Source of the DNA: Euglena gracilis
Lineage: Eukaryota
Direction: 5' to 3'
Assembly (NCBI GenBank): GCA_039621445.1
Contig: CP154954.1
Coordinates: forward strand, 31,086,012-31,150,011
DNA: 64,000 nucleotides
Below are positions 1 to 14,900 of this stretch, piece after piece; position 1 is the stretch's first letter, and every line of letters starts with the position of its first letter. Position numbers and translations under genes: made by a program. The notes beneath the pieces were generated by a model. That model was not told where the DNA came from. It ran no database searches and saw only the letters and a program-made list of their open reading frames with translations.

Positions 1-10
1 CTGACTCACA
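1..10 (-). repeat. Start of 3' LTR (TGTGAGTCAG), truncated by the window edge
   Basis: Identical to 11005-11014 and directly preceded on the minus strand by the PPT. Confidence 0.8.
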
Positions 11-21
11 CCCCCCTTCCC
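11..21 (-). promoter_or_regulatory. Polypurine tract (plus-strand primer) of the Gypsy element
   Basis: Minus strand reads GGGAAGGGGGG immediately before the LTR-initial TG. Confidence 0.8.
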
Positions 22-1167
22 GAAGGAGTTGTTTACAACTCTTCACAACTCCAACAGGAAGGGGTGCGGAGTGCACTCGTTGTGAGGAGGGGGCGAGCGA
101 GGGGACAGTTGTTCAGGCCCCCCCCCTCAGGGGGCTGTGCCGTTCAGGTTCGTTTTCTGACCGTGGGGCTGAGTCAAATGTTCTCCTTTGGCAGTTGGGT
201 CGGTTTGGTGTGTTGTCCCCCCTCCCAGCCCGCCTAGGGCTGTGTGGCGTTGGGGGGGAGGGGGCAGGCGACGTTGTGAACCAAGCGCCAGCCACGGGTA
301 AAAATTTCAGGAAATTCTAATTCCCAGGCCAGGTGAGTTGTTTTGTCACGGTCAGGGTCCTAGACAGCCGTTTTTGGTTCGGTTAGCCAATACGGTGTTT
401 GGGGTTGGTGTCCGTTCGGTGGGGGGTAGGTCCCGTTGGGGTCTTCAACCCCCCCCCCCCCCAGGCCAGGCGGTCAGGCTCCGGCCGGGGACGAATTTTT
501 ATAAGAATCAGGTGAATGCTGGGTTTCAGTTAAAAATAAGGCTGGGTCAAGGACAATGTTTTTTTTGTATTTTTGTTGTTTTTCTGGGGGGTAGACTGGT
601 TTGTGTGAGGTCAGGTGTTGCGGAGGGTCCTCGCCCCCCCCCCCCCCCAGGCCGGTGGCCCGGGGTCGGCCAGGTCTGCGTTTTTTGCGTTTTTGGGTCA
701 AAGTCAGGTTCCCCTTCCCCCGTTTGCCCAGTTTTGGCTGGCTGCTACGGTTGGGGTTGGGGGCTGTGTTTTGTTTTTTTTTTACAGGTAGGCTGGCCAA
801 GTCCAGGGGGGAAGGTTGGTTCTCCTCGGGGGGTCCCAACCCACAACAACAACGCTGAAGAATTGAAGAATGGATTGATTGGCTGTTGAGGGGTACTTGA
901 GGTCAGTGAATTCGGGTCGGGTCGGGTCTTGTTCAGGTCCGTTGGGCTGGATCAAGTTAAGCTGGCCAGCGGTTCAGGTTCAGGTGGGCTGGCCAGGGGT
1001 GCTGCCCGGGCCCGTTTTGTCGTTTTGGTTAAGCAGGTTTTGTATCAGGTATAATTGTTCAAATCGATTGAGGTTAATGTGAGCAGTAGGGTTGGGGTTG
1101 GCTTCGGGGTCGTTCGGGGTGTCGACGTTACGGTGTCTGTGAGGGGCCCACGGGTATGTGACATGCG

Positions 1168-1385
1168 TCACTCCATCCCATCAAGCAACACCCTCACATC
1201 CACAGCCAGGACCCGTTTTTTGCAGTATTGGACCACATCTTTGTTTGTTCGGAGGAAGAAGTCGTTCAGGGGTTCCCACTGAATATCAGATGGGTCCCAG
1301 TTTTTCCACTGAATCAAAAATTGAAGTTTTCCGACTTTTCTGCGGTGGTTCAGCACTTTTCAACATCCCACTCGTCCGGTCCGAC
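1168..1385 (-). pseudogene. Chromodomain at the integrase C-terminus (frameshifted)
   Basis: EWDVEK / LNHRRKVGKLQFLIQWKNWDPSDIQWEPL matches the chromodomain pattern (VE.I..hr...yLikW.g......WEP). Confidence 0.85.
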
Positions 1386-2400
1386 CTCCAACTCCTGTTC
1401 CTTGCCCCACCAAAAGTAGAGGGGGACAGGGGTTGTGTTGTAGAGGTCCTCCTTGTGGGGTTTGAGTTGTGAACGGTGGGCAGGTTGTCGGTTTCCAGGT
1501 CGTAGTTCAACCACGTAGGAGTGTTGTCCTACCCGTTCCAACACCACCGCAGGTCCTTTCCACTTCGGTTCGAGTTTGTCGCTGCCGGGTTGTCTTTCGG
1601 GTTGATACCAGACTTTGGGACCGATTTCCAAGGCAGGTGGTTCTCTGCGTTTTTGGTTCACCGTTTAACCCCTTTCACGCTGTTTTTCGTTCAGGACCAG
1701 ACTGACCCACTGGTCTTGTTCCTTCATCTTTTCCAAGAACGCTGTGGCCCCTTCCGCTTCCTTTTGTGGTTGGTATGGCAATCCCGCCAACGGTCTGTGC
1801 CTGCCAAACACAATTTCGTACGGTGACAATCCCGTTTCACCTGGGACGCAACCTTTTCTGCTGTGAGTCCCTTGGCCAGGTGGGGGGTTGCAACCATCCA
1901 CCCACTCAGCCTGTCCACACACAACGACAACGTGTCGTATTTCTTCCCTTCAAAGGTCGTTTCAGGTGGTGAGAACAAATCGATAGCAACACTGTCCATC
2001 AGGTGTGCAGGAATAGGTGGCGGTTCAATGGGGCACTTGTATGGTAGGTGGCTGGGTTCTGTGGCTTGGCAGGTTTCACACACGGTCATCATTTTGCCTG
2101 TCAGTTTTTTTGCATCCTGCTGGTGCGCAAACGCAAACCGCCTTCCCATCTGGTCCCACAGTCGGGCTGACCCTGGGTGCCCGGCTGTTTCGTGATGTTC
2201 CCAAAATACGTTTCCAGTCAACCCACTTGGTACACACAGAAGACCGTTTTTGTAGAGCCTGCCGTTATCGTATCGGTACCCGTCAGGCCAGTTTTTGAAC
2301 TCTGTTTCCTTCAGGTTCTTGAGCACAGGTCCCCACCTTGGGCAACTTTCGTAGTCGTTCTTCCATTCCCTGTCCATCACCCCTTTTGGTTCCCCCTGTT
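1386..2400 (-). pseudogene. Gypsy integrase, internally deleted
   Basis: HHETAGHPG...CETCQ zinc finger, VAIDLF, VDRLSG, TGLSPYEIVFGR and KLEPKWKGP (GPY/F). The sequence jumps from TAEKVASQ to TGLSPY, so the second D and the E are missing. Confidence 0.88.
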
Positions 2401-2636
2401 GGAGCTCCGGGGCGTGCACTCCCCTTGATGGAGGTCCAACGGGTGTCCCCGTTGAGGATGACGCACCTTGCGCGTCCTGTTGTTTTGTTGAGTCGGTTGT
2501 TGTTAGGGGTTCCACTGGGTCCTCTTCCAGGGGTCTTCGCCTTGGTGGGTCTTCCTCAGTGGATGGTCCCTCGGCCGTATTTGAATTTTCTGGGGTTTCG
2601 TTTTTTGGTTGGTCTGGTCTTATCAGGTTTCCTGCC

Positions 2637-3563
2637 TCATCCGTGGTCTCCCTTGGGGTTACTTCTGCCAGTCTTTTGCTTGGTTCCACCACAGTCGTTT
2701 CCTTCACAACCCATTTCTTTGTCGTTTTTGCAGGTTTTTGAGGTGTTTTTTGAACTTTTTTGAGGGGTGTCACCGTTTTCCGTTGAACCAGGCACTGTGG
2801 GCGAATCTTCACCCGTTTTGGCTCCCCCCCTTGTTGCGACGGCCACAGTGACGGGTTCCTGTTTTCGTGCCTGTGCCAGGTCTGCCACGTTGATCACCAT
2901 ACAAGTTTTCTGTTCCTTTTCCTCCTGTTTGGTGATTTCTTTCATGAGTCGGTCGTCCTCCTCACTCCCGCGGATACTCACGTCGGCGAATGCCTGTGTG
3001 GCGGGGTAGGCCCACCAACTCAAGGCATCGGCGACCGTGTTGTCTTTGCCAGGTACGTATGCTACAGTTATGTCGAACCGCGAAAGCAGTTCGTGCCACC
3101 TAGCCCTACGTCCAGCTGGTCCACTGGGGGTGTCCAGAGCTTCCGTTGCCCATGCCTCAATGGATTTGTGGTCCGTCAACACCAGTACCGGTTGCATTCC
3201 TATCCAGGAAGCCCATTTTTGCAGGGCCAGGATCACTGCGTAGGTCTCCTTCTCTCTAGGAGACCACGAGCGAACCTGCCCAGGTGTCAGCTTTCGTGAA
3301 CAAAAAGCTACAGGTACCATTTTTTTGGTCATGGCTGTCGTTGGGTCTGGTTTTTCTGCAGTGTCCTCCGCAAATTGTTCCAGAGCCGCACCCACTGCTC
3401 TGCCACTTGCGTCCACCCTGAGTATGAACGGTTTGTCGGGGTTCACCGTTTGCAGTTTCAGGCTTCCGAGCAGTTTTTCTTTGATGGTCTGGAAGGCTGT
3501 TCTTTCCTTTTCACCGAAAAACACAGGTGTCATGCTTCCTTTCTTTCCTTGTCCCCTTTTCAC
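2637..3563 (-). CDS. RNase H region of pol, followed by a low-complexity linker
   Basis: FILRVDASG, PVAFCSRKL, EKETYAV, LTDHKS, ARWHELL and YVPGKDNTVADALS are Ty3 RNase H motifs. Confidence 0.92.
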   Translation of the reverse strand: MKRGQGKKGSMTPVFFGEKERTAFQTIKEKLLGSLKLQTVNPDKPFILRVDASGRAVGAALEQFAEDTAEKPDPTTAMTKKMVPVAFCSRKLTPGQVRSWSPREKETYAVILALQKWASWIGMQPVLVLTDHKSIEAWATEALDTPSGPAGRRARWHELLSRFDITVAYVPGKDNTVADALSWWAYPATQAFADVSIRGSEEDDRLMKEITKQEEKEQKTCMVINVADLAQARKQEPVTVAVATRGGAKTGEDSPTVPGSTENGDTPQKSSKNTSKTCKNDKEMGCEGNDCGGTKQKTGRSNPKGDHG

Positions 3564-3572
3564 TTTCAGTTT

Positions 3573-4763
3573 TTACATCAGGTCTGCAGCCATTTCCGCG
3601 TACCCTGGTATGTATGAGGCGTGGTAATTTGTGAATCCCAGGAATGCCCGCAGGGCTGTGACCGTTTTTGGTTCCTCCCATTTCTCCAAGGCCATCAGTT
3701 TCCCAGGTGCTGGTTTTCGTTGTCCACCACCCAGCACATGTCCACAGAATTCAACCTCTTTCACGAAAAATTTGCATTTCTTGATGTCTGCCACGTGTTG
3801 CTGTTTTTTCAGTGCCTCCATCACCCTTCTGATGTCCTTGTCGTCTTGTTCAAGGGTTTTGTCTTCTGACCCCTGCCATACGGTTCCTACGATGATGTCG
3901 TCAACGTAGGGGTTTGCAATGTCCTGTACCTCCTCCAGGCTGTACTCGATCACCCGCTGTAAAATCGGTACACCGTTTTTCATTCCCATGACCACCACTC
4001 TCCACTGTTTTGTTCCATTAGGTGTGCTGCAGCAGGTGTAGGATCTGGACTCTGTTCTCAGTGGCACCTGGTGGAAGGCGTCTTTTAGGTCCAGTACGCT
4101 GTACAGGGCCCGTTGTCCTTGTTGAACTTGGATGTCTTCTATCCTAGGGAGGGGATGGGCGTCTGTGATTGTTGCCTCGTTCAGTGCTCTAAAATCCACC
4201 ACTCCTCTCCATTTTCCACCTTTTTTGGCCACCACGAACGTGGGACTGGACCAGTCACTCCTCCCGTCTTCCACTTTCAGGTCACTAACCCGTTCGTCCA
4301 CCATGTCGATGAGTGCCTGTCGGCGTTCTCCTGTCATGTGGATGGGTCTTTGTCTTTTCGTCACTGTTCCAGGTTTCAGTTCGATTTTCCCATAACCCAG
4401 AGGTCCACGTTCTGGGGGGTCTGGGAAGATTTTGTATGGCAAGACCACTCCTTCGTAATCCTGCCGCAGTTTTTTCACCAGTTCAGCCACCTTTTCGCCT
4501 TGTGTTTCCTGTCCTTCTGGCACCACCACAACACCGTGAACCCTGTCAGATTTCTTTGGCGATTTCTGAAGTTGTTTTGCCAGTGTTTCCAGTGTTGTTT
4601 CGTCTGCAAATAGTTTTTCGTCGTCCTGGCCCGCTTCAGCAGGAATCTGCAAATTCATTGCCCGCACTGCCGAAATGTTTTTCTGAAGGTGGTGTATTTT
4701 CCGTTCCCTGTGTTTTTGTTCCTTCAGCTGGTGCCAAACTGGACAGCAGCCGCAGTGGTTCAT
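3573..4763 (-). CDS. Reverse transcriptase (Ty3/Gypsy)
   Basis: WSSPTFVV, WRGVVDFRALN, HPLPRIED, LDLKDAFHQV, NPYVDDIIV, KCKFFVKEVEFCGH, LRAFLGFTNY. Confidence 0.95.
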   Translation of the reverse strand: MNHCGCCPVWHQLKEQKHRERKIHHLQKNISAVRAMNLQIPAEAGQDDEKLFADETTLETLAKQLQKSPKKSDRVHGVVVVPEGQETQGEKVAELVKKLRQDYEGVVLPYKIFPDPPERGPLGYGKIELKPGTVTKRQRPIHMTGERRQALIDMVDERVSDLKVEDGRSDWSSPTFVVAKKGGKWRGVVDFRALNEATITDAHPLPRIEDIQVQQGQRALYSVLDLKDAFHQVPLRTESRSYTCCSTPNGTKQWRVVVMGMKNGVPILQRVIEYSLEEVQDIANPYVDDIIVGTVWQGSEDKTLEQDDKDIRRVMEALKKQQHVADIKKCKFFVKEVEFCGHVLGGGQRKPAPGKLMALEKWEEPKTVTALRAFLGFTNYHASYIPGYAEMAADLM

Positions 4764-5140
4764 CTATGAGGGCCAGTGATTGTAGGTGTGAAAAAACCCC
4801 CAGTTGGTGTTGCTCTATCCACGGATACCCGAGGATGGCATCCACTTGGATGTCGGCGTCATGGAACGTTCCAATGGTGGACCATTCCCTTGTTCTGTCA
4901 GTGTTGTGCACCCGTGGTGAAAACTGCAGTTCCAGTGTGACTTCACGTAGTCCTCCTTCCATCCTTGTTCCGTGTGCTGTGATCAGGGCCAGGGGTTTTT
5001 GTGAACGTCTGAAATTTTGTTGTGGGATCAGGTTCTTTTTCACCAGGTTTGCCTGTGCTCCCGTGTCAATCAGGGCCTGTAGGAACATTTTTTTGCCGTC
5101 GGGCAACACAGCACGGACTTCGATGAGGAGTTGTTTTGCT
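4764..5140 (-). CDS. Retropepsin aspartic protease (ORF 4636-5109, frameshifted to RT)
   Basis: ALIDTGAQANLV and DAILGYPWI motifs. Confidence 0.9.
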
Positions 5141-5232
5141 TTCTTTCTGCTGATGACCTGCCCAGCAGGAGTTTGGACACCGGTTCACACAGTCGTTTTG
5201 GAAGCCAAATGTTTTGGTCTGGTTCTGTTTTG

Positions 5233-5928
5233 TCAGTTGAATCTGTGTTTGGCTGTTGACCTGTCAGTTCTGGGCTGGGCTGTGAGTTTTGTTCCACAGA
5301 ACAGGTCCAGCATTTTTGGTTTTGGTTTTTCAGCTGTGGCCCGTTCTGGTGTCGCTGTGGCTGCCTCCTGCAGTTTTCTGATGTTTTTCTGTGGTTTTTC
5401 TGTCCCCAAGTCGTTTTTCTGTTCACCACCCTCCGCCTCGTCCTCCACTGGCGGGTACTCGTGGGCTGTGCCGAACCTCACCTTGGATGTCGGGTGTAGG
5501 GGGGTGAAATGTTTGTGGAAACCTGGTAGGTACTTGCACCATGTTCCTTGTCCGCATACCAAAAACACTTCCACAGGCCACGGTGTATTCCTGCAGTTCT
5601 TGTCACCCTGTCCGAACAGTTTTGTTCCCGCTGGGATGAACATTGACATCACTGCCAGTTTTTTGATTTCTCCGTACCATTTTCTGTGAACCCATCTGGG
5701 TACCATGAGGAGTGCATGGGCCTCGTCTGTTTGAATTTTTCTCACCACCTGTGAAATTTTGCTGAATGGGGGGTTCATCCACAGCAGTTTTACGTGCCAG
5801 TTTTTTCCAAAGGCATCAGTTCCGTCTGGGCTGCCAGATCCCCACCATTGCGGGAATCTTTTGTTCTTTTCCGTTGCAAAGGCATCCAGCTGGGGCTGGA
5901 CCCCGAAGTGTGAGAGAATTTCTGCCAT
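5233..5928 (-). CDS. Dam-like DNA N6-adenine methyltransferase domain, ending in a C5-MTase-like motif I (MLDLFCGT)
   Basis: QLDAFATEKNKRF..WW (SAM-binding), DAFGKNW, LLWMNPPFSKISQVVRKI, LLMVPRW...WY. This is the layout of phage Dam-like and DIRS MT domains. Confidence 0.88.
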   Translation of the reverse strand: MAEILSHFGVQPQLDAFATEKNKRFPQWWGSGSPDGTDAFGKNWHVKLLWMNPPFSKISQVVRKIQTDEAHALLMVPRWVHRKWYGEIKKLAVMSMFIPAGTKLFGQGDKNCRNTPWPVEVFLVCGQGTWCKYLPGFHKHFTPLHPTSKVRFGTAHEYPPVEDEAEGGEQKNDLGTEKPQKNIRKLQEAATATPERATAEKPKPKMLDLFCGTKLTAQPRTDRSTAKHRFN

Positions 5929-8062
5929 TTTATCTTAATTCACGTGGTAGTTTTCAGACACCCACCGTGAAGCTGCTTTGCCGAACCTGCAGCTGACCTG
6001 TTCCCTTTTCGGTTCTGGGCTGTGGAGTAATTTGTTTGTCAGGATGTTTTTCTTTTGGGATTTTTTCTTACCTCCCTTACCCAGTGTGTATGACCGCTGC
6101 GGCTCTGGACCTGGTTCCCTTGTTTTGTTTTGTTGTTTCGGTTGTGTCTGCAGAGAGTCGCCCCTCTCGTTCCCTACCCTCAGGCAGGCTCACTTCCGTT
6201 CAGCGTTTTGAACTGGCTGCCAGAGATTGCTGGAAGATGCTTCTGCCTTTGGCTGTCCCTGTGGCTGGTTGGCTGGCTCCTGTAAGCTCGTTCGCTGTGG
6301 CTGTGGTTCGGTTTTCGTTGCTGCTGGCTGTGGCTGTGGCTGCCCTTTGCCTTTTCCTTTCCCGCTCTCCTTCCCAGAATTGTATCCTTTCCCAGAGTTG
6401 TATCCCTTTCCTGAATCGTAGCCTTTGCCGTAATTCTGATTCCAGTTCTGGTTCCAGTTTTGGGTTGAACCCCAGTTTTGACCTTTCCCCTTTCCTTTGC
6501 CTTTGCCTCAGTCGTTCTGTCCCCAGTCTGACCAGTTGGTGTGCCGTCCCTGGCCGGGCTGTTCTGAAACTGCCGTGGGCACCTGCTGGCGTGGAGAAGG
6601 GGGTCTGGGTTTTTCAGGTGTTGGGGTTCGAGGTCCAGGACAGTTGGGTCGGGATCTGGAATGTGGTGTCCGACTTCTGGATTTTGTTTTCTCCTCCTCC
6701 TTGACTTCCCTGACGTAACCCCTGCGGTCCGTCGACCGTGTTCTGTTTTCTCGTGGTTGGTTCTGCCAGCCGTTGTACCCCCTACCCAGGGCGTCTGACT
6801 GTTGTTGGCACCGGAGTTCAGTTTCCACACGTTGGAACAATTCGTCCAGTGTCAGTTTGGCCTGTACCTGTGTGAAATGTGGCTTGTGTCCAGTCAGCAA
6901 CGTTGAACCGTTTTTCATCAGGAGAAGTTCAGCAGCTCTGCTGCTGTGCAGTTGGATCCAGAAGTTTTGTCCGTCTCGTGCCACCTTAAAATTTTCACCT
7001 GTGCCCACAGGTGCTGCCACCAGGTCACGAACGTCTTCCGTTGTTGCATCTGGCACTTGTGTAATGTTCGTGACCCCTTTCAGTTTCAGTGTCGGTCTGT
7101 CCTGATTTCTGCGGTCCTGTTCCCTGATGCAGCTTCTGCGTTGCGTTTCAAGCATTTCTTCAGCCACCAGGTTGTAAGCGTCTTCCTCTGATGGATTTTC
7201 CAGCCTGCTGTAGAGGAGTTTGAAATGGGCTTCAAACTCCCTCCACGCTTCCAGTGTCAGTTTTCCTTCCATTTTTGGTCTCAGGTTTTTCAGTTCGTCT
7301 TTGATGGCTGATTGCGTGTCTCCACCCTATTTCTGGCACATCCAGTTCCAAAATTCCTGGTATTTTATTTTCTCACCTCGTTCCTGTCTGCGTTGTAGTT
7401 CCAGTTTGCTGGCACTGTCCAGGCTGCCCTCCAGCAGTAACAGTTTCAGGTCATCGGTCAGGGACCCCTGACCGGCTGACACACGTTGCAGGTACATTGG
7501 AAATTTCACGGCAAAATCTGCTAAATTCCCCTGCAGTGTTGGTCTTACCAGGTCTTTTGTCATTGCCGCGCCCACTGGACCCAGCAGCAGCCCGAAGGAT
7601 GCTGCCGGGGCCGTTGCCACGGGTGCCACCACTGTTTCCTCTCCTATGTGGTGGATGGCAGTTTGGGTAGACACCATCTGGGGACCCACCCAGGTTGTTG
7701 TGGCTGTGTTCTGAGTTTCTGTTTCGTCTGCCCACATGAACAAGCCCCGAGTCCGGGACTGTGAGTTTTGTTGTGTCGTCACTGGCTGTGAAATCTGTTG
7801 AGTCGGCTCGGTTGGCTGTGGTGATGGGCTTGTCGGGTTTGTCGTCAGTGCTGGGCTGGTCGGGACTGCAGTCGGCCGTTGTTCTGTTTGTCGAGTCAGT
7901 TGGGCAATTAACGGTGTCAAGGCAGTTTTTGGTTCTTGCTGGATGAGCTGCCCCACCAGGGAAGCCGGGTTAACGGTCCCCAGTGCTGCAGCTCCTCCTT
8001 CCATTTTTGGGTGTGGTGTTTCGTCCCCCCAGTGCTGGCTGCTCTGGCTGAACATACCTGTC

Positions 8063-8300
8063 AGGGGTTGTGGGTCCCCGTCCCCGTTTGACAGACCTGG
8101 GGTTCTGGGGTCCCCGTCCCTTGGTTTCCTGCGGGCTGGCCTCTCAGGGCTGGCCGTGGCTGGGCCAGGGGTTGTGGGGTCCCCATCCCCGTTGGCCAGA
8201 CCTGGGGTTCTAGGGTCCCCGTCCCGTGTTGTCTTCTGGGCTGGCCCCTCGGGGCTGGTGGGGGCTGGTTCTGGGGTTGTGGGGTCCCCGATCCCCGTTG
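8063..8300. repeat. About 105-bp imperfect tandem repeat within the gag-like ORF
   Basis: ggggttgtgg(g)gtcccc recurs near 8064, 8168 and 8272, with agacctggggttct in two units. Confidence 0.75.
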
Positions 8301-10189
8301 GCCCGCGGCCCTGTCTGCCCCCTGGGGGGGTTGTTCTGTTCGTTGGGCCGTTGTGGCTGACCCTCGCTGTCCAGCCTGGGTCCTCGAGGGAAACCCGCCG
8401 GCCAGGGAGCTGGCCCCCGTCTCTGGCCCGAAGGCCCCTGTGCAGGCTGGGCGAGAGGAAATGCTTAAATTTTCGAAAAGTTTGGGTATTTCAGCCAGGC
8501 CAGAGCTGGGGGTTGTGATTTGCTGGGTGTTTTGCCTTTCCAGTTTTTCAGTCAGGTTTTCAGTCGTTTTTGTCACAGTACTGATTTTTCTGTCCAGGGT
8601 CACCAGCTGTTCTGTCCTCCGTTTCTGCTGTGTTTGCAGTTCTGTGGTCAGAGAATGTAAATGCTGCCAAATGCCGTTGTCATGAGTTTCCCGTTCTGCA
8701 GTTTTTGTTGTCAGACAAGCCAGTTTTGCTTCCAGTTGACCGACCCTGGTTGTCATTGATCCAATGGCAGATGCCATTTCCAGCCATTTGGCATGTTCAG
8801 ATGTGTCATGTGTTCCTGTTTTAATGGTCCCTTTTTGTAGTTCACCCAGCAGTTTTTGAGTCGTTTGGGCTGTTTCGTCCACCCTGTGACCCAGGTTGCC
8901 AACCTCCAGGTTCAGACGTTCAGTGCGTTGTTTGTGTTTTTCTTCGTTGGAGGTCAGAGTTTCCACCTGTCGTTTCAGTCTGCCGATTTCCTCGTTCAGC
9001 CGTGTAGTCTGCTGCTGCTGATCTGGGATTTTCTGCAGTTCGACCAATTTTTTGTGCAGGTAATCACAGTTCTGAATGGTTGTTGTCGTTTTTGTTTCCT
9101 GCTGCTGAACCCGTCCTGCCAGATTTCCGATTTCACTGCCCATGTCCTTCTGAATTCTTTCCACCACACTGCTGATTTCGCCTCTGAGGTTTTCAACCTT
9201 GCTGGACACTGTTGCCACCGTTTCGTCCACTTTGCTGTTCACCGTTTGGACTCCGCCTGTGATTCCTGCGACCCGTTCTTCTGCCACGGCCAATCTTTGT
9301 TGCAGTTCTGCAGTTGGTTTTTCATTTTCTCGCTGTCGGTGCAGTAAACCAACCAGATGTTCACCCTGGTTCTGTGCGTTTCCACCTGCCTTCTGCAGAA
9401 AACTGTGAAATTCCCTGAGTTTTGCACCCAGTGAGCCAGACATTTCCCTGATTTCTGTGATCTGCTGTGACATTCCGTTGAAATGTACCTGGTACAGCCT
9501 GTTCTGGTTGACGGTCACCTGTTCCATGTTTGCCTGTGTTGTTGCCAGTACTGTTGTCAGTTCTTCGTGTCTGCCGTTTTTTTCTGTCATGAGTGCTTCA
9601 CCCTGTCTGTTCACTGTTACATGCAGTTCGCTGACCCATTCCGTCGTTGTTTGCTGTAGCTGCTGCACTGTTTCTGCCGTTTGCTGGTTCGTCTGTTCGG
9701 TTTTGCGTCTGAACTGTTGAAATTCCTGGGTCAGCTATCCAGTTTCGTATGCAAAGTTCGACCACCAGTCCCAGTCGTTCTGGTTCTGTGGTTCCGGCTG
9801 TGGAATCTCGTACGAGCTGTACGATGGTTCCTGGTACGAAGTTTCAGCTTCACCCTGGAGGCGGTCTGGTTGTTCCGGGCTCTGTCGTACCGCCACCAGT
9901 GCAAAACTCTGGGTTCCTGGTTGCTGCGCTGTTGCAGTTTGCCAGTTTTGGTCGTTCTGAGTGTCCGTTTCTGGCTGTTGGTACCAGTTTCGTGGTGCAA
10001 ACACCTGTTCGTCGAAGTACGGTTCGTTGTTTTCGTCCAGTTCTGTGTAATCTGGTGCTGGACCGGTCTGTTCGGTGTCGTCCTGGTCCATGTGCACCAT
10101 GGCAATGACACGTGGGCTGTCATTGCATGTCTGTGGCACTGTAATGTCTGTGCCGTTTTGTTCAGTTTCAGTCCACCTGTTGCTGTCCA

Positions 10190-10416
10190 GTGACTGGTAC
10201 ATGGCGGCAAAGCCATCTGCCGGCTCCAACACCCTAGCGATGGCGGTTAAGGCAGCTGGCATTTCCAGCGTTCGTTCATTGCTGGGAAACCATCCGCCTG
10301 CTTCACCACCCTAGCGATGGCGGTAAAGGCAGCTGGCACATCCAGTGTTTGGTACATGGCTGAGTTGCCCTCCGCCGGCTCCGCCACCCTAGCGATGGCG
10401 GTTTCGGCAGCTGGCA
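10190..10416. repeat. About 78-bp tandem repeat, 3 copies
   Basis: accctagcgatggcggt...ggcagctggca near 10231, 10308 and 10386 (peptide MPAA.TAIARV). Confidence 0.85.
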
Positions 10417-10855
10417 TGTCAGCGTCAGTGTTTTCAGTTTCTGGTCGTTTTTCAGCTTGTTGTTCGTAGCCGCATGTTGGAGGGGAATCAAAATTGGGCA
10501 GTCTACCTCTGCGACCATGTTGTAACCGTGGTACCTGCCCTGGAGTTTCCAGTCCCTCGGGGCCGGCACCCCTTTGCGTAGGATCTTTTACCCTGCCCAG
10601 GGTATTTTCAATTCCCCTCGCGGCTTGTTTTGAAAGTTGCATTTTCTTTGTTTTTATGGGTCTTTTTGGGTGAAAACAGGTGGTTTGGTTGGCTCACACC
10701 TTTCCTTTGATAAAAAATCCACAAGCAATCAGCAAATCCACCAGCACAATACAAGCAAACCACAAAGGATGAAAGTACCAAAGTCCAAACCAAGGGTAAG
10801 AGAATGATAGGTTCCAGATAATTGACCAGATAATTATTGGACCCCAAATTGACAG

Positions 10856-11014
10856 TGTGACAGAGAGACAGACAGAGGACAGAGCCCTGCACAGGGACAG
10901 ATGGAGTCAGTGATTGAAATTCCTAATAAGACTTTCCTAATCCTAACTGAAGAGTCATCAGGTTGGGTTGGGTTAGGTTGTGTTTTTTTGGGCACTCAGC
11001 TACCCTGACTCACA
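10856..11014 (-). repeat. 5' LTR, about 159 bp (TGTGA...TCACA)
   Basis: Starts TGTGAGTCAG; nearest matching inverted terminus CTGTCACA ends at 10856. The inner boundary is inferred because the 3' LTR is off-window. Confidence 0.65.
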
Positions 11015-11760
11015 CTAGTAGGGCCATCTGGCTACAAATTGGGCATTTTTGTTTGACGTCTGGGGAGGAAAAAAAATCTGTTACTAAGTTTATCAAATCT
11101 TTGAACTGCCGCCTTAGCCATTGAAAGAGCGGGGGGGTCCGGTGAGTCTGACTCCCACCTGCTTATGGGGTCTGCTAAGCATTCCTGCGAACGAACCCAT
11201 ATCACTTGTAGATTCATTTTTTTTCACGCACCAATTGAAAAATGGTCTCAGAATGCGTGGTTCCCCCCCCTTTTTCAGGTAATAAAAAATTGCACACGAT
11301 TGTCCACTGAAAGGGACACTATTTTCCCTGGCATGCTTAGACCTTTCACTGTGCTGATGGCTACACGTAATTCTTTTACATTCATATGTAAAATGTAATT
11401 TTCTCTCCAAAACTCTGGAAAATTTCTCCAGTTTTTGTGGCGGGGAAAATTCTGTTTTTTTTGTTGTTTTTTTCTGCAACGGGTCCTTGTCCTTTTTTTT
11501 TGAAGATCAGTGGTTCAAGCCTGACCCCCCCACCAAGCCATAATATCGGGCACCTTGGGGGACTCTGAAAAATCAGGTCTACGTGGAAAAGCCCCACCCC
11601 TTTCCTCCGACAAGCTAGTGGAACGGGTCTTTGGACACAAAATCTCAAAACGATTCCAAACAAAACCATCACTGGGCACTCTACCACGAAGGCCTAAGTC
11701 CCACGCTACCCCCTCAAAAAATGTCCTTTCTTTTTTCTTTTTGGCAGCTTTCATTCTGTG
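11015..11760 (-). mobile_element. DIRS-like relic (RT, RNase H and start of MT), interrupted by the Gypsy LTR
   Basis: NLQVIWVRSQECLADPISRW...PPALSMAKAAVQR and LRPFFNWC are homologous to 17810-18060. Confidence 0.8.
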
Positions 11761-11949
11761 AGAATTCCTTCGACACTGCCTCAGAAAACGAATCGTGTGC
11801 GCAAAAATATAAACATAAAACTAGGCATTCCTTTCCAATCTGGGACAGAAAAGGTGAAACGGTGAAAAGGTAATGGGTAAAAATAGGCAAACGGTGCCAA
11901 GATAAGACGGTTATATGGGGGAATAGTGCACAATGGGTGTTCAGCTTGG

Positions 11950-14900
11950 TGTGCGTGTGCAGTTGTGTGTTTTGTGTGTATGCACGCTCACTTCCTTGTC
12001 ATGCATTCCAACCAAAAATGACTGGGTCAACTCTTTTTGAACGCAAAGATAGAAGGGCTTCGCATTGGCCTTCAGCAACTTTATCACAAGGCTTTGGTCG
12101 CCCACGTGGCTTTTTTATTATTATTGGACCACACCAGGGCCTTTGGACGGGGGGGGGTCATCTCCATTCCAGGCCCCCCACCCGAGTTTGAATGTCTCCA
12201 AGCTGTGTTCCATGAAATAATGCCTTTTGACGCACAGCCATAATCCAAATAAAGCAAACTGAGTTCTGAACTCCCAACTCGTTTTTCATCCTCCAAAAAA
12301 ATCGTCAAAATCCCAGGTTTTTCCAACTCCTTGAATAAAAATCCTCCAGCAACAAAAAACCTGAAAAATTCAAAATTTGTGTGCAACCCACAAGTCCAGG
12401 GCCTACAAAAGCCCTCAACAAAATCCAATCGAGAATTCCAACCTGCCACATGAAATAAACAAAGTCCAACCAAGAGCAACAAACCAAACAGAAGCAACAT
12501 CCAGCAGCATACCGTTGCATAGGGGCCAGGCCAATCCAGCCCAACCGGGCGCCAAACCAAACATTGAAGTCATAAAATCCAACCAAACCGGCCTGCCAAT
12601 TAAAATTAACTGCCTCCCCCCAGTCACATTGCCAATTCAACGTTCAATTCGAAAATTCGGCAAAAGATGCATTCGAAAAGATGGACTGCCAATCGGATGT
12701 TTCTTTGCAAGGTTTGTCGTTTGAGATGAAAGACTTCAATTTTCTATTGGATTACCCATCGAGCGATTTTGCCGAGGTTTGGGAAAATTGGAACCATGGA
12801 AAGCTCAAGTCATCGACGATTGTTTGTGGTTCAAGGGCAAAGACAAACTTTTTTGTGAGCGAAAGTTGGCCATCCCCAAGGAAAGTCTTCCTCAAGTCTC
12901 ATTGTGGTTACACCGAGCTTATGGGCATCCCGGTCCCGAACGTACGATTTGGTCATTTCTCCAAAATTTCCATTCATCCATCTCAAGAAAGGATTTGTTT
13001 TTTTTATTTCGGAATGTTTTGGGTTCATGTCAAACGCGTGTCATGTCAAAGCCAAGTTCACAAGCCGATCGGGGACTTTTGGGTTGTTTGCCTATTCATC
13101 CCCTTTGCAACGATATCATTTTTGTCGATTTTTCCACCCTTGATGAATTCAATTCTTTTGATTATGCTTTGGGTATTGTGGATTGTTTGAGTCGGTTTTG
13201 TTTGTACCTCCCATGCCACAAAGAGGTGACGGGTGAAAAAGAATTGAAGATGATTTTGAAAGGATGGGTGAAAAAATGTGGTCGCCCCAACGAAGTTTTG
13301 AGTAACAATGACATTCGCTTCAAGTCAAGTTTCGGTTTTTAACAAGAGGCCATGAAATCACTCGGAATCAAGGTTTCGTTTTCTATTCCGTGGCTTTCTC
13401 ATCAAATGGTTTGATGGAAAGAGAAAATCGTTCGTTTGTGCAAACATTGAGATATCTTGTGCACGAAACGGGTACAAAAGATTGGCCAAAGTTGCTTCCG
13501 TACCTCAATATTGTGATGAACAGCCAGATTTCAAGTTCGACGGGAATGTCTCCATCGGAACTTTTCCTCAGTCGATCTCCTTGGAACTTCGAAAGTGTTG
13601 GAGAACCGTGTGAAAGTCCATCTGTCGAAAATTGGATTTTGGAACAGGTTTTTCTTCAAGAAAAGGCAGCTTTGGGGCTGAAACATCTCAGATCTTTGGC
13701 GATGGAACGGAAAAACAAGGTTCGGAAACCTGCAGTTTATGAAATTGGTCAATTTGTCCTCGTCCACAAATCTCGATGGCCCCAGAGAAAAGTCGAAAAG
13801 GTCGCCAGTCCATGGTTTGGACCCTACAAAGTTGTTCAAGTGCACCACAACTCTTTGCAAATTTTGGCATCTCCATCATTGGGAGGTTTGGTGAAAGTTT
13901 TGTTATCCCAAGTGAAACACTGGAGTTCTGTCCACGACCCACACAAGGACACTTCTTCTTTTTGTCAGAAGAGTGTGACGAATTTGATGGTGCACAACCC
14001 CCTGCTTCATTCACAGGTCACACAGACGACCGAGGAACAGGCGGCGAACGGCGAGGCGCAAGCGACGCACACAGAGGCACACGCGACGAACGCAGGACAA
14101 AACCAGAACACGACAGAACAAGGCCAGAGCAGGAAACGTGAGGCGAAAGGCCCAGAACAGCCGAACGAGCGCGCGACGCACGGCCGAGCGCACGCGACGA
14201 ACCACCAGAAAGACCAGAAGGACCCAACACCCAGAAAGACCAGTTTTCTTCTACTTTTTCTTCACAGATGGTTACCAGAAGCAAGGCCCGAGGGCCAGAA
14301 ACAAGTTTCAATTAAAAGAAATCAATTTTTGAATTTGGTCGACATGGAGGTGAGTCAAAGAGAATTTGGAAGAAAAAGGCGGAGTGGGAGAAAGAGAACT
14401 TGGAGGAGGGTGGACCTGAGGATCCTTTGCAGCAGGCTGCTGCAGCTGGTTGGACTTGCTGTTGATGTTCAAATGTTGATTTTCAAAATGTTGATGTTGA
14501 TCTTGCTGTTGTTGTTCCACAAGCTGAACTTCAACATGCTGATGTGTCTGGGCCTGTGGGCTCAGTGTTGCAGCCCTGTGCTGCAGACTTGTCTGCAGAT
14601 TTGGTTTTCCCAGTTTCACAGCCAGAACCAGAAAAAGTCAGCAATTTTGCTTCAGAATGTGTTTCAGATTTGCCCAAAACAGCCAGACAGTTTTCAGAAA
14701 TGGAGGCTGCAAAAATGGGTTTTTACAATGTTGAAGCCATTTTGGATCACAAGTTCAGAAAAGGTTGGAGGTTTCTGACAAAGTGGGAGAGTTACCCAGT
14801 GCATTCATCAACATGGGAACCAGTCAGAAGTATCATATTGCCAGGTGGAATAATGAACACAGTTTTTCAGAATTACATTCAGGACAATGGTTTGCAAGAG

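What the first reader, a model, noticed from the sequence alone, without database searches (positions are those of the whole stretch)
5500..5960. N6-adenine methyltransferase domain embedded between gag and protease of a Ty3/Gypsy chromovirus
Seen: an uninterrupted domain with DAFA (SAM-binding) and WMNPPF (catalytic) motifs on the element's coding strand, between the gag-like region and LIDTGA, inside LTR/PPT boundaries. Known: Dam-like MT domains are a regular part of DIRS tyrosine-recombinase retroelements, where they follow RNase H; they are not part of the standard Ty3/Gypsy domain set. Inference: this is an integrase-type LTR retrotransposon that may methylate its own cDNA or target DNA, combining a DNA-mark writer with a chromatin reader (chromodomain).
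Basis: partly seen in the sequence, partly recalled or inferred. Interest (0 to 1): 0.9.

Follow-up and report, generated by a model that had tools for sequence, protein, structure and literature searches.

The report
Dead retrotransposon carrying DNA-methylase domains
This is a broken copy of a very abundant Ty3/Gypsy-type jumping gene whose family carries an adenine methylase and a cytosine methylase just ahead of its protease, a real but rare design that a 2026 preprint has already described in other hosts.

Summary
The core observation holds. On the minus strand, 5934-5530 encodes a Dam-like N6-adenine methyltransferase domain (Pfam PF05869, 29.6-31.1 bits, cut-off 28.1). It has the DAFA and WMNPPF motifs and lies upstream of PR-RT-RNaseH-IN-chromodomain.

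Three parts of the observation do not hold. No LTR pair is in the window. The upstream "gag" matches no known family. A TAA at 5935-5937 cuts off the domain's conserved N-terminal ~20 residues.

A 91%-identical relative (P0001), and contigs from an RNA library and a DNA run, carry a compact C5-cytosine methyltransferase directly after the Dam domain. This copy lost it in a ~0.65 kb deletion at 5286|5287. It also has six in-frame stops and at least five frameshifts, so it is dead.

The family is hugely repeated in its unnamed host. Of the 120 closest RT relatives, 74 carry Dam and/or DNMT modules, in many different orders.

bioRxiv 10.64898/2026.05.21.726589 (May 2026) already describes "DAM-LTRs" and dual-methylase "EpiLTRs". 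I file this as a new member of a known kind: a distinct RT and DAM clade with the order DAM-DNMT-PR. Whether the domain methylates DNA is untested. Its best solved structural match is the RNA cap methyltransferase PCIF1.

The parts
5530..5934 (-). Core of the Dam-like N6-adenine methyltransferase domain. DAFA lies at 5886-5875 and WMNPPF at 5781-5764.
   Evidence: Pfam PF05869, 29.6 and 31.1 bits against a cut-off of 28.1. AlphaFold model from alignment A1: pLDDT 92.2, pTM 0.87, folded over residues 1-~135. D17, F19, N54, P55 and P56 are at least 90% conserved in 149 sequences.
5935..5937 (-). In-frame TAA that separates the domain core from its conserved N-terminal ~20 residues (about 5938-6000).
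   Evidence: tblastn of P0001 reads through it, with '*' where P0001 has a residue. Stop list. Residues 55-84 of frame 6189-5938 match the start of the DAM domain in 5 relatives.
5314..5529 (-). Linker after the DAM domain, predicted disordered.
   Evidence: P0001 model residues 145-205 have pLDDT below 50. The stretch is about 90% identical to P0001.
5287..5313 (-). Remnant of the C5-cytosine methyltransferase: its first nine codons (MLDLFCGTK, motif I).
   Evidence: Sequence. Alignment to P0001 residues 217-225. Motif I is conserved in A2.
5286..5287 (.). Deletion junction. About 0.65 kb, corresponding to P0001 residues 226-443 and nearly the whole C5-methyltransferase, is missing here.
   Evidence: tblastn gap. 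Loose ends of RNA-library contigs at 5286, 5287 and 5294 run into sequence that translates as both ends of P0001's DNMT segment. A DNA-run contig (X1, record 5) also stops at 5287 with 61 unmatched letters.
5161..5286 (-). DNMT-to-PR linker, out of frame with both the DAM and PR frames. A one-base length difference lies near 5160.
   Evidence: tblastn HSP in another frame. Sequence. Indel table.
4636..5184 (-). Retropepsin (ALIDTGA).
   Evidence: Weak Pfam hits: gag-asp_proteas at E 7.8e-4 and RVP at E 2.4e-3. Matches the PR of relatives at 26-54% identity.
3573..4763 (-). Reverse transcriptase. A frameshift against PR lies near 4736.
   Evidence: Pfam RVT_1, 84.5 bits. Most contig depth lacks one base at 4736.
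2637..3572 (-). RNase H, in the same frame as RT after an in-frame stop at 3573-3575.
   Evidence: Pfam RT_RNaseH, 77.8 bits, and RT_RNaseH_2, 70.5 bits. ORF borders.
1350..2893 (-). Integrase, broken into three frames. It contains an H2C2 zinc finger, a core remnant and an SH3-like C-terminus.
   Evidence: Integrase_H2C2, 24.9 bits (cut-off 25.5); SH3_Tf2-1, 25.4 bits (cut-off 30). 29-53% identity to the IN of relatives that carry Pfam rve.
1171..1359 (-). Chromodomain, frameshifted from the IN C-terminus near 1360.
   Evidence: Pfam Chromo, 31.2 bits against a cut-off of 25.1. Frames.
5938..8490 (-). Upstream frame in the gag position (proline-rich, then a folded-looking part, then GK-rich). 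It is one frame with the DAM domain but is interrupted by stops at 7327, 6508 and 6190.
   Evidence: No Pfam family at E<=10 and no CCHC knuckle. Calling it gag is an inference from position only.
8061..10693 (-). Further upstream coiled-coil and repeat-bearing frames that belong to the same repeat unit.
   Evidence: Summed contig depth is flat from 1 to about 11200. Most contig depth has one more base at 8071, which would join this frame to the next (the joining is my inference).
1..1170 (-). Non-coding 3' part of the repeat unit. No LTR can be shown.
   Evidence: High contig depth. No match to any upstream part of the window.

Best explanation
Window 1 to about 10.7 kb (minus strand) is a dead copy of a very high-copy, chromovirus-like Ty3/Gypsy retrotransposon.

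In intact family members, two small DNA-methyltransferase modules sit in tandem upstream of protease, separated by disordered linkers. The first is a ~135-residue phage-Dam-like N6-adenine methyltransferase. The second is a ~220-residue compact C5-cytosine methyltransferase. The order is (upstream ORF)-DAM-DNMT-PR-RT-RNaseH-IN-chromodomain.

This copy keeps the DAM core but has lost the DNMT to a ~0.65 kb deletion. It also carries in-frame stops and frameshifts. All of this is shown.

The following is inferred. In live copies the methylases are made as part of the polyprotein on the Gag side of PR and are freed at the linkers. They then mark the element's own cDNA, or the RNA:DNA intermediate, with 6mA and 5mC before or at integration. 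Meanwhile the integrase chromodomain steers insertion into marked chromatin. The new copy would thus arrive already carrying the host's DNA marks.
For: Domains and order.

Relative P0001 (91% identical over the DAM part):
- Pfam Dam 31.9 bits, DNA_methylase 22.6 bits (cut-off 22), then the start of PR.
- Phage profiles: phrog_757 'DNA methyltransferase' E 1e-13 on the DNMT part and phrog_111 'DNA methyltransferase' E 7.6e-9 on the DAM part.

Deletion at 5286|5287.

Folds:
- DAM model, pLDDT 92.2. It matches adenine-N6 methyltransferases: PCIF1 Z 10.1, E. coli Dam Z 8.2, T4 Dam Z 8.1.
- P0001 model: two folded domains with linkers at 145-205 and 443-473. The DNMT part matches DNMT3A/3B, DNMT1, M.HaeIII and M.HhaI at E 3e-8 to 5e-7.

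Constraint:
- DAFA and NPP columns are at least 90% conserved in 149 sequences that are 27-91% identical to the window's domain.
- DNMT motifs I, IV (PC) and VI (ENP) are conserved in 34 sequences.

A regular part of the family:
- Flat contig depth and bridging contigs.
- 74 of the 120 closest RT relatives carry DAM and/or DNMT.
- The window's RT sits in a 6-row clade (99*) with P0181, which has DAM-DNMT-PR-RT-RNH.
- Its DAM sits in a 14-row clade (98*) made mostly of DAM-DNMT(-PR) rows, again including P0181.

The mechanism follows the model in bioRxiv 10.64898/2026.05.21.726589 (Discussion read).
Against: - No activity is shown for any member. The preprint's expression of DIRS, DAM-LTR and adintovirus DAMs in dam-deficient E. 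coli did not raise 6mA.
- The best solved structural match is an RNA enzyme, PCIF1.
- Iyer et al. 2016 (PMC4738411, passages read) place the DIRS1 methyltransferase domain in the PCIF1 clade and call it probably inactive.
- No LTRs, PBS or PPT were found in the window, and the gag identity of the upstream ORF is unsupported.
- Pfam scores are marginal (29.6 against 28.1; 22.6 against 22).
- Cleavage at the linkers, packaging and timing are pure inference.
- Trees are FastTree only, built on segments picked by blastp.
Confidence: 0.62

Rival explanations
1. The 'Dam' module is a PCIF1-type adenosine-N6 methyltransferase that acts on RNA rather than DNA. Its target would be the element's own transcript (cap-adjacent or internal adenosines) or the RNA strand of the reverse-transcription hybrid. 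It would tune stability, translation or packaging of the genomic RNA. Only the DNMT would write on DNA.
For: - The best solved match by two independent aligners is the cap-specific adenosine methyltransferase PCIF1/CAPAM. Foldseek: E 5.8e-5, TMq 0.65. VIA: Z 10.1 with 137 of 149 residues aligned, against 101-105 residues for T4 and E. coli Dam.
- KsgA, Dim1 and Erm rRNA adenine methyltransferases fill the next ranks.
- Iyer et al. 2016 put the DIRS1 polyprotein methyltransferase in the PCIF1 clade.
- The preprint's DNA assay in E. coli was negative, and its authors themselves suggest an RNA-DNA hybrid substrate.
Against: - By sequence profile the domain matches only phage-type DNA methyltransferase families: Pfam Dam PF05869 and phrog_111. 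At E<=10 only Dam is listed for the window's domain.
- A profile of 149 relatives finds no PCIF1 chain in the PDB sequences.
- The domain lacks PCIF1's WW and helical cap-binding parts.
- No member of PF05869 appeared among the solved chains, so the PCIF1 rank may only reflect which folds have been solved.
- The preprint reports more 6mA on DAM-LTR copies than on other LTRs in three species.
Confidence: 0.15
2. The Dam-like module is catalytically inert and serves as a binding or mimicry module, as Iyer et al. proposed for DIRS1. It is carried along without methylating anything.
For: - Iyer et al. 2016.
- Negative heterologous assays.
- The domain is minimal and has no target-recognition domain. 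The preprint says CD-1, TR-1 and the hairpin of bacterial Dam are missing.
Against: - The catalytic NPP and the Asp of DAFA are at least 90% conserved across 149 sequences that are 27-91% identical to the window's domain.
- 112 of 149 still match Pfam Dam.
- The module has been kept through at least 6 changes of position on the RT tree, which would be costly for a dead domain.
Confidence: 0.08
3. The methylase block does not belong to the Gypsy-like element. It is a nested insertion of a DIRS-type or other element, or an assembly chimera.
For: - The preprint notes that nested insertions and chimeras are possible in Euglena.
- One X1 contig joins 5277 to 5950, skipping 672 bases, with 28 letters on the shorter side.
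Against: - The block shares strand and frame with the upstream ORF.
- Contig depth is flat across it.
- Contigs bridge 5742-7041, 5775-6574 and 5287-5762 and run on into DNMT sequence.
- Many independent predicted proteins from other sources carry DAM and/or DNMT in one ORF with PR, RT and IN.
- No tyrosine recombinase is present, and no repeat bounds the block.
Confidence: 0.02

Closest known systems
EpiLTRs / DAM-LTRs (Fernandez-Moreno et al., bioRxiv 10.64898/2026.05.21.726589, May 2026; Results and Discussion read, figures and supplements not seen)
   Same: Ty3/Gypsy-like LTR elements that encode a DIRS-type DAM domain. A subset also has a DNMT and a chromodomain. NPP is conserved in the pocket. 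A Euglena gracilis transcript (P0212, source label EG_transcript_113), with the order DAM-PR-RT-RNH-IN-chromo, falls among the window's 120 closest RT relatives.
   Different: - In the text I could read, the Cymbomonas type has its DNMT at the 3' end of pol, and the order in the Euglena type is not stated.
- Here the order is DAM-DNMT upstream of PR.
- The window's RT and DAM fall in clades separate from the one holding the E. gracilis transcript, whose neighbours are DNMT-DAM-PR.
- The window copy itself is dead and lacks the DNMT.
DIRS1-type tyrosine-recombinase retrotransposons (methyltransferase domain after RNase H)
   Same: The same Dam-like domain family (Pfam PF05869). The preprint derives the LTR-borne DAMs from DIRS elements.
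   Different: No tyrosine recombinase here. Instead there is a DDE-type integrase with an H2C2 finger and a chromodomain. The methylase lies before PR, not after RNase H.
TE-borne cytosine methyltransferases: SymbioLINE-DNMT, SymbioDIRS-DNMT3 and Gypsy-DNMT3, as named in the preprint; de Mendoza et al. 2018, PMC5890265, seen only as a search listing and abstract start
   Same: A retrotransposon polyprotein carrying a C5-methyltransferase.
   Different: Those elements carry no adenine methyltransferase. The DNMT here is a compact ~220-residue form with a conserved Cys/His cluster. It is best matched by phage family phrog_757 (E 1e-13) and by a 238-residue DNMT next to a phage-type primase on L001 (33% identity).
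PCIF1/CAPAM, cap-specific adenosine-N6 methyltransferase (PDB 6irv-6is0)
   Same: Best solved structural match to the DAM model. Iyer et al. 2016 group the DIRS1 methyltransferase domain with it. That PCIF1's catalytic motif is also NPPF is recalled, not checked here.
   Different: No sequence-profile match. No WW or helical cap-binding domain. PCIF1 is a cellular RNA enzyme.
Phage Dam family (Pfam PF05869; phrog_111)
   Same: The only sequence families that the domain matches. It has the DxFA and NPPF motifs.
   Different: The match covers only profile positions 24-120 of 169. The domain is embedded in a eukaryotic retroelement polyprotein. No target-recognition part is evident.

Membership tests
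Pfam Dam (PF05869) N6-adenine methyltransferase | Profile match at or above the gathering score | tested here: met
   29.6 bits for the 233-residue ORF and 31.1 bits for the 149-residue piece, against 28.1. P0001 scores 31.9 bits. The margin is small.
Pfam Dam (PF05869) N6-adenine methyltransferase | Catalytic (D/N)PP(Y/F) motif after strand 4 | tested here: met
   N54-P55-P56-F57 is present. N, P and P are at least 90% conserved in A1. The strand at 50-53 precedes it in the model.
Pfam Dam (PF05869) N6-adenine methyltransferase | SAM-dependent methylation of adenine in DNA | not testable with these tools
   The preprint's E. coli assays of related domains were negative. The window copy is in any case cut by a stop at 5935-5937.
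Ty3/Gypsy chromovirus (LTR retrotransposon) | PR-RT-RNaseH-IN order with a chromodomain at the integrase C-terminus | tested here: met
   Relatives carry Pfam rve and Chromo.
Ty3/Gypsy chromovirus (LTR retrotransposon) | Flanking long terminal repeats with PBS and PPT | tested here: inconclusive
   No direct repeat links 1-1170 to any upstream part. The copy may run off the window start and looks truncated or replaced at its 5' end (another repeat starts at 11021; loose ends at 10725). PBS and PPT were not searched for formally.
Ty3/Gypsy chromovirus (LTR retrotransposon) | Gag with capsid and nucleocapsid features | tested here: inconclusive
   No Pfam family at E<=10 for 6508-7326 or 7330-8490. 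No CCHC pattern in 5900-11200. No match to any of the 296 fetched proteins except the ~20 residues that belong to the DAM domain.
EpiLTR (DAM + DNMT + chromodomain LTR element) | DAM, DNMT and chromodomain in one Ty3/Gypsy-like element | tested here: met
   Met for the family, not for this copy.
- P0001 has DAM-DNMT-PR.
- P0181 has DAM-DNMT-PR-RT-RNH, and P0179 has DNMT-PR-RT-RNH-IN-chromo.
- The window keeps DAM, 9 codons of the DNMT and the chromodomain.
EpiLTR (DAM + DNMT + chromodomain LTR element) | Belongs to one of the two published EpiLTR lineages (Cymbomonas, Euglena gracilis) | tested here: inconclusive
   It is not the Cymbomonas layout, where the DNMT sits at the 3' end of pol. The one E. 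gracilis-labelled protein is 56% identical in RT and sits in a different RT and DAM clade.
DIRS tyrosine-recombinase retrotransposon | Tyrosine recombinase instead of a DDE integrase, with the methyltransferase after RNase H | tested here: not met
   Integrase_H2C2, SH3_Tf2-1 and IN homology are present and there is no Phage_integrase hit. The methyltransferase lies before PR.
PCIF1/CAPAM | Sequence-family membership and the accessory WW and helical domains | tested here: not met
   At E<=10 only Dam is listed for the window's domain. No PCIF1 chain is found by the A1 profile. Only the catalytic fold is alike: Z 10.1.

The most novel reading that the evidence does not exclude
The Dam-like module of this clade is not a DNA 6mA writer. 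It is a minimal PCIF1-like adenosine-N6 methyltransferase that marks the element's own RNA or the RNA:DNA replication intermediate. It is paired in one polyprotein with a phage-type compact C5 DNA methyltransferase and a chromodomain. The retrotransposon would then write on both its RNA and its DNA. The pair has been reshuffled into at least eight different positions within one RT clade, a far larger radiation than the two species in print.
Probability: 0.15. Interest if true: 0.75.

Novelty: new member of a known kind. Interest (0 to 1): 0.38.

Why it matters
Retrotransposons that bring their own DNA-mark writers turn the usual picture around: normally the host methylates the transposon to silence it. 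This family shows the design at scale.

- It is hugely repeated in its host.
- Both an adenine and a cytosine methylase sit on the Gag side of protease.
- In the wider RT clade the modules have been moved around repeatedly.

The principle is already in a 2026 preprint, so the window adds a further clade and domain order rather than a new idea.

The open and testable point is the substrate of the Dam-like domain: DNA, hybrid or RNA. The only published activity test was negative, and the closest solved fold is an RNA enzyme.

Tried and rejected
- **Whole-genome search:** no genome is held for this window.
- **Earlier findings of this scan:** nothing by place, sequence or words.
- **ESM Atlas with P0001:** no usable hit.
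- **Rfam and tRNA scans of the window:** nothing, so no PBS-tRNA lead and no taxon marker.
- **Cluster look-up of P0001:** a single member with no name.
- **Metagenome scan with P0001:** only two distant DNMT loci, L001 and L002, and no further family copies with DNA. dN/dS on DAM therefore could not be computed.
- **PDB by sequence:** nothing meaningful with P0001 or with the DAM profile. The DNMT profile gave only weak DNMT1 hits, E 2e-4.
- **-1 ribosomal frameshift at an A-run before the end of the frame following the deletion:** considered to explain the one-base length difference near 5160. Rejected because the PR-frame translation upstream of that run is 100% identical to P0001, so the PR frame is the coding one there.
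- **Share of genomic copies carrying the deletion:** could not be read, because too few rows are shown.
- **Joints 5277>5950 and 583>8697:** each rests on one contig per run with 25-28 letters on the shorter side, so I draw nothing from them.
- **RNA evidence:** runs X15-X19 are only guessed to be RNA, and contigs cannot show transcription. I claim presence in RNA libraries, not expression.
Full report
**What is at the coordinates**

The element lies on the minus strand. Stop-to-stop frames and Pfam give this order from high to low coordinates:
- Upstream frames with no known family: 10693-8061, which is coiled-coil and repeat-bearing, and 8490-5938.
- A Dam-like domain, frame 5934-5233. PF05869, E 6.7e-7, 29.6 bits against a gathering score of 28.1, residues 8-104.
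- Protease, 5184-4636 (ALIDTGA; weak RVP and gag-asp_proteas hits).
- Reverse transcriptase, 4763-3573 (RVT_1, 84.5 bits).
- RNase H, 3572-2637 (77.8 and 70.5 bits).
- Integrase, 2893-1724 (H2C2 finger, 24.9 bits, just under its cut-off), with an SH3-like C-terminus at 1664-1350.
- A chromodomain, 1359-1171 (Pfam Chromo, 31.2 bits against 25.1).

By my count on the translation, DAFA is residues 17-20 (5886-5875) and WMNPPF is residues 52-57 (5781-5764).

**Is the domain more than chance?**

A full HMMER scan of 1.84 billion representative proteins with the 149-residue piece found 2568 proteins at E<=1e-3, 304 at E<=1e-10 and 22 at E<=1e-30.

I aligned 149 sequences (alignment A1): the window, P0001, seven DAM-bearing proteins, and 140 of the 147 new best hits. 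The last 7 were dropped to fit the size limit. The columns D17, F19, A41, W46, W52, N54, P55, P56, K66, P79 and W81 are at least 90% conserved, while identity to the window ranges from 27 to 91%. Of the 149, 112 match Pfam Dam at E<=0.001.

AlphaFold on this alignment gives a confident model, pLDDT 92.2 and pTM 0.87.
- Foldseek's best solved matches are the cap-specific adenosine-N6 methyltransferase PCIF1/CAPAM (6irw_B, E 5.8e-5, TMq 0.65), then KsgA, Dim1 and Erm.
- A Foldseek-independent search gives PCIF1 Z 10.1 (137 residues aligned, rmsd 3.7), E. coli Dam Z 8.2, T4 Dam Z 8.1, ErmC' Z 8.1, M.TaqI Z 7.1 and DpnM Z 6.7.

The fold is that of an adenine-N6 methyltransferase.

A word-indexed search for longer proteins found a single relative, P0001 (544 aa, 91% identical; 1 hit among 42 candidates).
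- It carries Pfam Dam (31.9 bits), C-5 DNA_methylase (22.6 bits, cut-off 22) and the start of the protease.
- Against phage families, its DNMT part matches phrog_757 'DNA methyltransferase' at E 1e-13. Its DAM part matches phrog_111 at E 7.6e-9. The same holds for four relatives.
- A model of P0001 built on 34 sequences has two well-folded domains, residues 10-140 and 212-430. Disordered linkers lie at 145-205 and 443-473.
- The second domain matches DNMT3A/3B, DNMT1, M.HaeIII and M.HhaI at E 3e-8 to 5e-7.
- Motif I (LDLFxGTGS), motif IV (PPCTEFS, with the catalytic Cys), motif VI (ENPR) and a Cys/Cys/Cys/His cluster are conserved across the 34 sequences.

tblastn of P0001 on the window aligns residues 1-229 and 445-544 and nothing between. 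The window keeps only MLDLFCGTK (5313-5287) of the DNMT.

In the leaf-litter metatranscriptome run X20, contigs have loose ends at 5286, 5287 and 5294. Their sequence translates as the two ends of P0001's missing segment. An X1 DNA-run contig also stops at 5287 with 61 unmatched letters. So the DNMT-bearing form exists in both DNA and RNA-library contigs, and this copy has a deletion of about 0.65 kb at 5286|5287.

**State of this copy**

The copy is dead.
- In-frame stops lie at 7327 (TAG), 6508 (TGA), 6190 (TGA) and 5935 (TAA) in the frame that runs from 8490 into the DAM domain. Two more lie at 3573 and 1665.
- The TAA at 5935-5937 separates the DAM core from about 20 conserved residues. 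These are ExYxV in the family consensus, and residues 55-84 of frame 6189-5938 match the start of the DAM domain in 5 relatives.
- Frames change near 5160, 4736, between RNase H and IN, inside IN, and near 1360.
- At 4736 and 8071, most of the laid contig depth differs from the window by one base. I infer that typical copies read PR-RT, and the two upstream frames, as one frame.

**LTRs and gag**

- No direct repeat of 25 nt or more links 1-1170 with any upstream part.
- blastn with word size 7 finds none either.
- A different repeat begins at 11021, matching 18060-17870 and 24104-24264.
- Contigs diverge from the window at 10725.

The copy is therefore probably truncated or replaced at its 5' end and may run off the window start. 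'Inside LTR/PPT boundaries' is not confirmed.

The upstream frames have no Pfam family even at E<=10 and no CCHC knuckle. They match none of the 296 fetched proteins, apart from the DAM extension. 'Gag' is inferred from position only.

**Is the domain a regular part of the family?**

Twenty public runs hold the stretch. Contigs from four runs were laid on 1-12000 at 88% likeness or more: X1 26,856 contigs, X2 20,415, X15 189 and X20 91.
- Summed word depth in X1 is about 300,000 and roughly flat from 1 to 11,200, then falls three- to four-fold.
- Bins 5201-5600 and 5601-6000 are as deep as their neighbours.
- Contigs bridge 5742-7041, 5775-6574 and 5287-5762 and run on into DNMT sequence.

The DAM block is part of a very abundant repeat unit, not a private nested insertion. 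Contigs cannot give copy number or prove transcription.

**The wider family**

The DNMT part of P0001 found 31 proteins at E<=1e-3 among 400 candidates of 299-952 aa. A local blastp map of those 31 shows:
- DAM in 8, PR in 14, and RT or RNase H in 4.
- Orders DAM-DNMT-PR, PR-DNMT-RT-RNH, DAM-PR-DNMT (an NCBI record labelled Genlisea aurea), RNH-DNMT and DNMT-DAM.

Of the 147 new best DAM hits, 128 show DAM only (median length 221 aa, mostly fragments). The other 19 show PR, DNMT or RT beside it.

The RT frame found 211 proteins at E<=1e-3 among 5068 candidates of 694-2000 aa, of which 120 were listed. Among those 120:
- 41 carry DAM, 56 carry DNMT, 23 carry both, 6 carry both plus a chromodomain hit, and 74 carry either.
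- 46 show neither. Of these, 33 show no PR hit (they begin at or near RT) and cannot be judged.
- Among the 23 with both, the orders are DNMT-DAM-PR-RT (8), PR-DAM-DNMT-RT (6), DNMT-PR-DAM-RT (3), DAM-DNMT-RT (3), DAM-PR-DNMT-RT (2) and DAM-DNMT-PR-RT (1, P0181).
- The layouts PR-RT-RNH-DAM-IN and PR-RT-RNH-DNMT-IN also occur.

**Trees**

A FastTree of 112 RT segments was built. Nine of the 120 listed relatives were dropped for RT hits under about 200 residues.
- The window sits in a 6-row clade (support 99) with P0179 (74% identical; DNMT-PR-RT-RNH-IN-chromo, starting inside the DNMT), P0180, P0181 (DAM-DNMT-PR-RT-RNH), P0182 and P0183.
- The position of DAM relative to PR and RT changes at least 6 times, counted on the 35 rows that can be judged.
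- The position of DNMT changes at least 2 times, counted on 48 rows.

A FastTree of 59 DAM segments was built from rows with a DAM hit of at least 106 residues and at least one other domain.
- The window groups with P0001 and P0033 (support 100).
- These sit inside a 14-row clade (support 98) made mostly of DAM-DNMT(-PR) rows, again including P0181.

RT and DAM therefore agree for the window's clade. The order DAM-DNMT-PR is inherited there, not a recent capture. Elsewhere the trees disagree. The DAMs of PR-DAM-DNMT and DNMT-DAM-PR elements are sisters (support 99), while their RTs lie on opposite sides of the RT tree. That fits module exchange. These are quick trees with local support only.

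**Host**

The runs' organism names are coded, and I did not try to decode them. One relative, P0212, comes from EukProt with the label EG_transcript_113. This naming is used for Euglena gracilis: 10 papers hold both terms. P0212 has the order DAM-PR-RT-RNH-IN-chromo, is 56% identical in RT, and sits in a different clade from the window.

No EukProt protein appeared among the close hits. The window has GC near 0.5. Its CpG observed/expected ratio is 0.39-0.65 over 1-44 kb, with an excess of TpG/CpA, as expected in a genome with CpG methylation.

I judge a euglenid host plausible but not shown. If the host is E. gracilis itself, the finding is already known.

**What is in print**

bioRxiv 10.64898/2026.05.21.726589 (22 May 2026) was read as abstract, all of Results, Discussion and term passages. 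Its figures and supplements were not available. It reports:
- 10,030 eukaryotic DAM proteins, 53.9% of them with retrotransposon features.
- The 'first identification' of DAM domains in non-DIRS LTR elements.
- Five DAM-LTR lineages.
- 'EpiLTRs' with DAM, DNMT and a chromodomain in Cymbomonas tetramitiformis (DNMT at the 3' end of pol) and in E. gracilis (a 'structurally distinct' layout).
- More 6mA on DAM-LTR copies than on other LTRs.
- No gain of 6mA when DAMs were expressed in dam-deficient E. coli.

Two literature searches found no earlier paper placing a Dam domain in a Ty3/Gypsy element.

Iyer, Zhang and Aravind 2016 (PMC4738411; passages read) place the DIRS1 polyprotein methyltransferase in the PCIF1 clade, derive it from cellular PCIF1 and call it probably inactive. 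My fold result agrees with the PCIF1 likeness. My conservation result (NPP and the DAFA Asp at 90% or more) argues against inactivity in this clade. The sequence profiles (Pfam Dam, phrog_111) argue for a phage-type DNA methyltransferase origin.

**Mechanism**

Shown:
- The family's domain order.
- Two independently folding methylase modules joined by disordered linkers upstream of PR.
- Conserved catalytic motifs.
- A chromodomain on the integrase.

Inferred:
- The modules are translated with the upstream protein, cut free by PR, and act on the cDNA or hybrid in the particle or pre-integration complex.
- The chromodomain directs integration. This rests on established knowledge of chromoviruses and is recalled, not checked here.
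- New copies thereby carry 6mA and 5mC on arrival.

The main functional rival is an RNA substrate for the Dam-like module.

**Verdict**

The copy is a fossil. The kind is already described in a 2026 preprint. The window adds a separate clade with the order DAM-DNMT-PR, a very high copy number, and a view of how freely these modules have been reshuffled.

Noticed in passing
window 10186-10420: Three tandem copies of a 77-80 nt unit (74-83% identical). In the minus-strand frame they encode a repeated peptide of the form MPAA.TAIARV.EPA.G..AMYQ.LD, near the start of the element's upstream frame.
   Followed up: partly
window 8072-8281: Two 105-nt tandem units (83% identical) in the proline-rich part where the two upstream frames overlap.
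   Followed up: no
window 8061-9734 (-): A 557-codon open frame with coiled-coil character, belonging to the same repeat unit. Its only Pfam hits are sub-threshold (Apolipoprotein, 18.2 bits against a cut-off of 90). An N-terminal region this long is unusual for a Ty3/Gypsy element.
   Followed up: partly
window 12725-14778 (+): Open frames with integrase-like wording (an HxxxH...CxxC-type finger, then a long frame) from a different retroelement on the other strand. The 488-codon frame has no Pfam hit.
   Followed up: partly
window 11021-11200, 17870-18060, 24104-24264: Three copies of another dispersed repeat, 78-80% identical over 163-193 nt. The first abuts the 5' side of the element.
   Followed up: no
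window, whole: The CpG observed/expected ratio is 0.39-0.65 over 1-44 kb and 0.77-0.82 over 44-60 kb, with an excess of TpG/CpA throughout. This fits CpG methylation and deamination in the repeat-rich part.
   Followed up: partly
L001 319-2838; L002 1458-2102: The nearest non-retroelement relatives found for the compact DNMT are phage-like.
- L001 carries a 238-residue DNMT (33% identical; phrog_757, E 5.5e-18) next to a phage-type DNA primase (phrog_1156, E 2.2e-46).
- L002 carries a 214-residue DNMT (phrog_757, E 8.5e-8).
This is a lead that the DNMT module may be of phage origin.
   Followed up: partly
window ~5160: A one-base length difference relative to P0001. By contig depth, a minority of the DNA runs carry the P0001-like form (17% in X1, 37% in X2), against 42% in X15 and all of the depth in RNA-library run X20. 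Many genomic copies may therefore descend from a frameshifted lineage.
   Followed up: partly
P0027 (NCBI M569_12700, labelled Genlisea aurea): A DAM-PR-DNMT polyprotein fragment is filed under a carnivorous plant. The preprint finds no DAM-LTRs in streptophytes, so contamination of that assembly by a protist seems possible.
   Followed up: no
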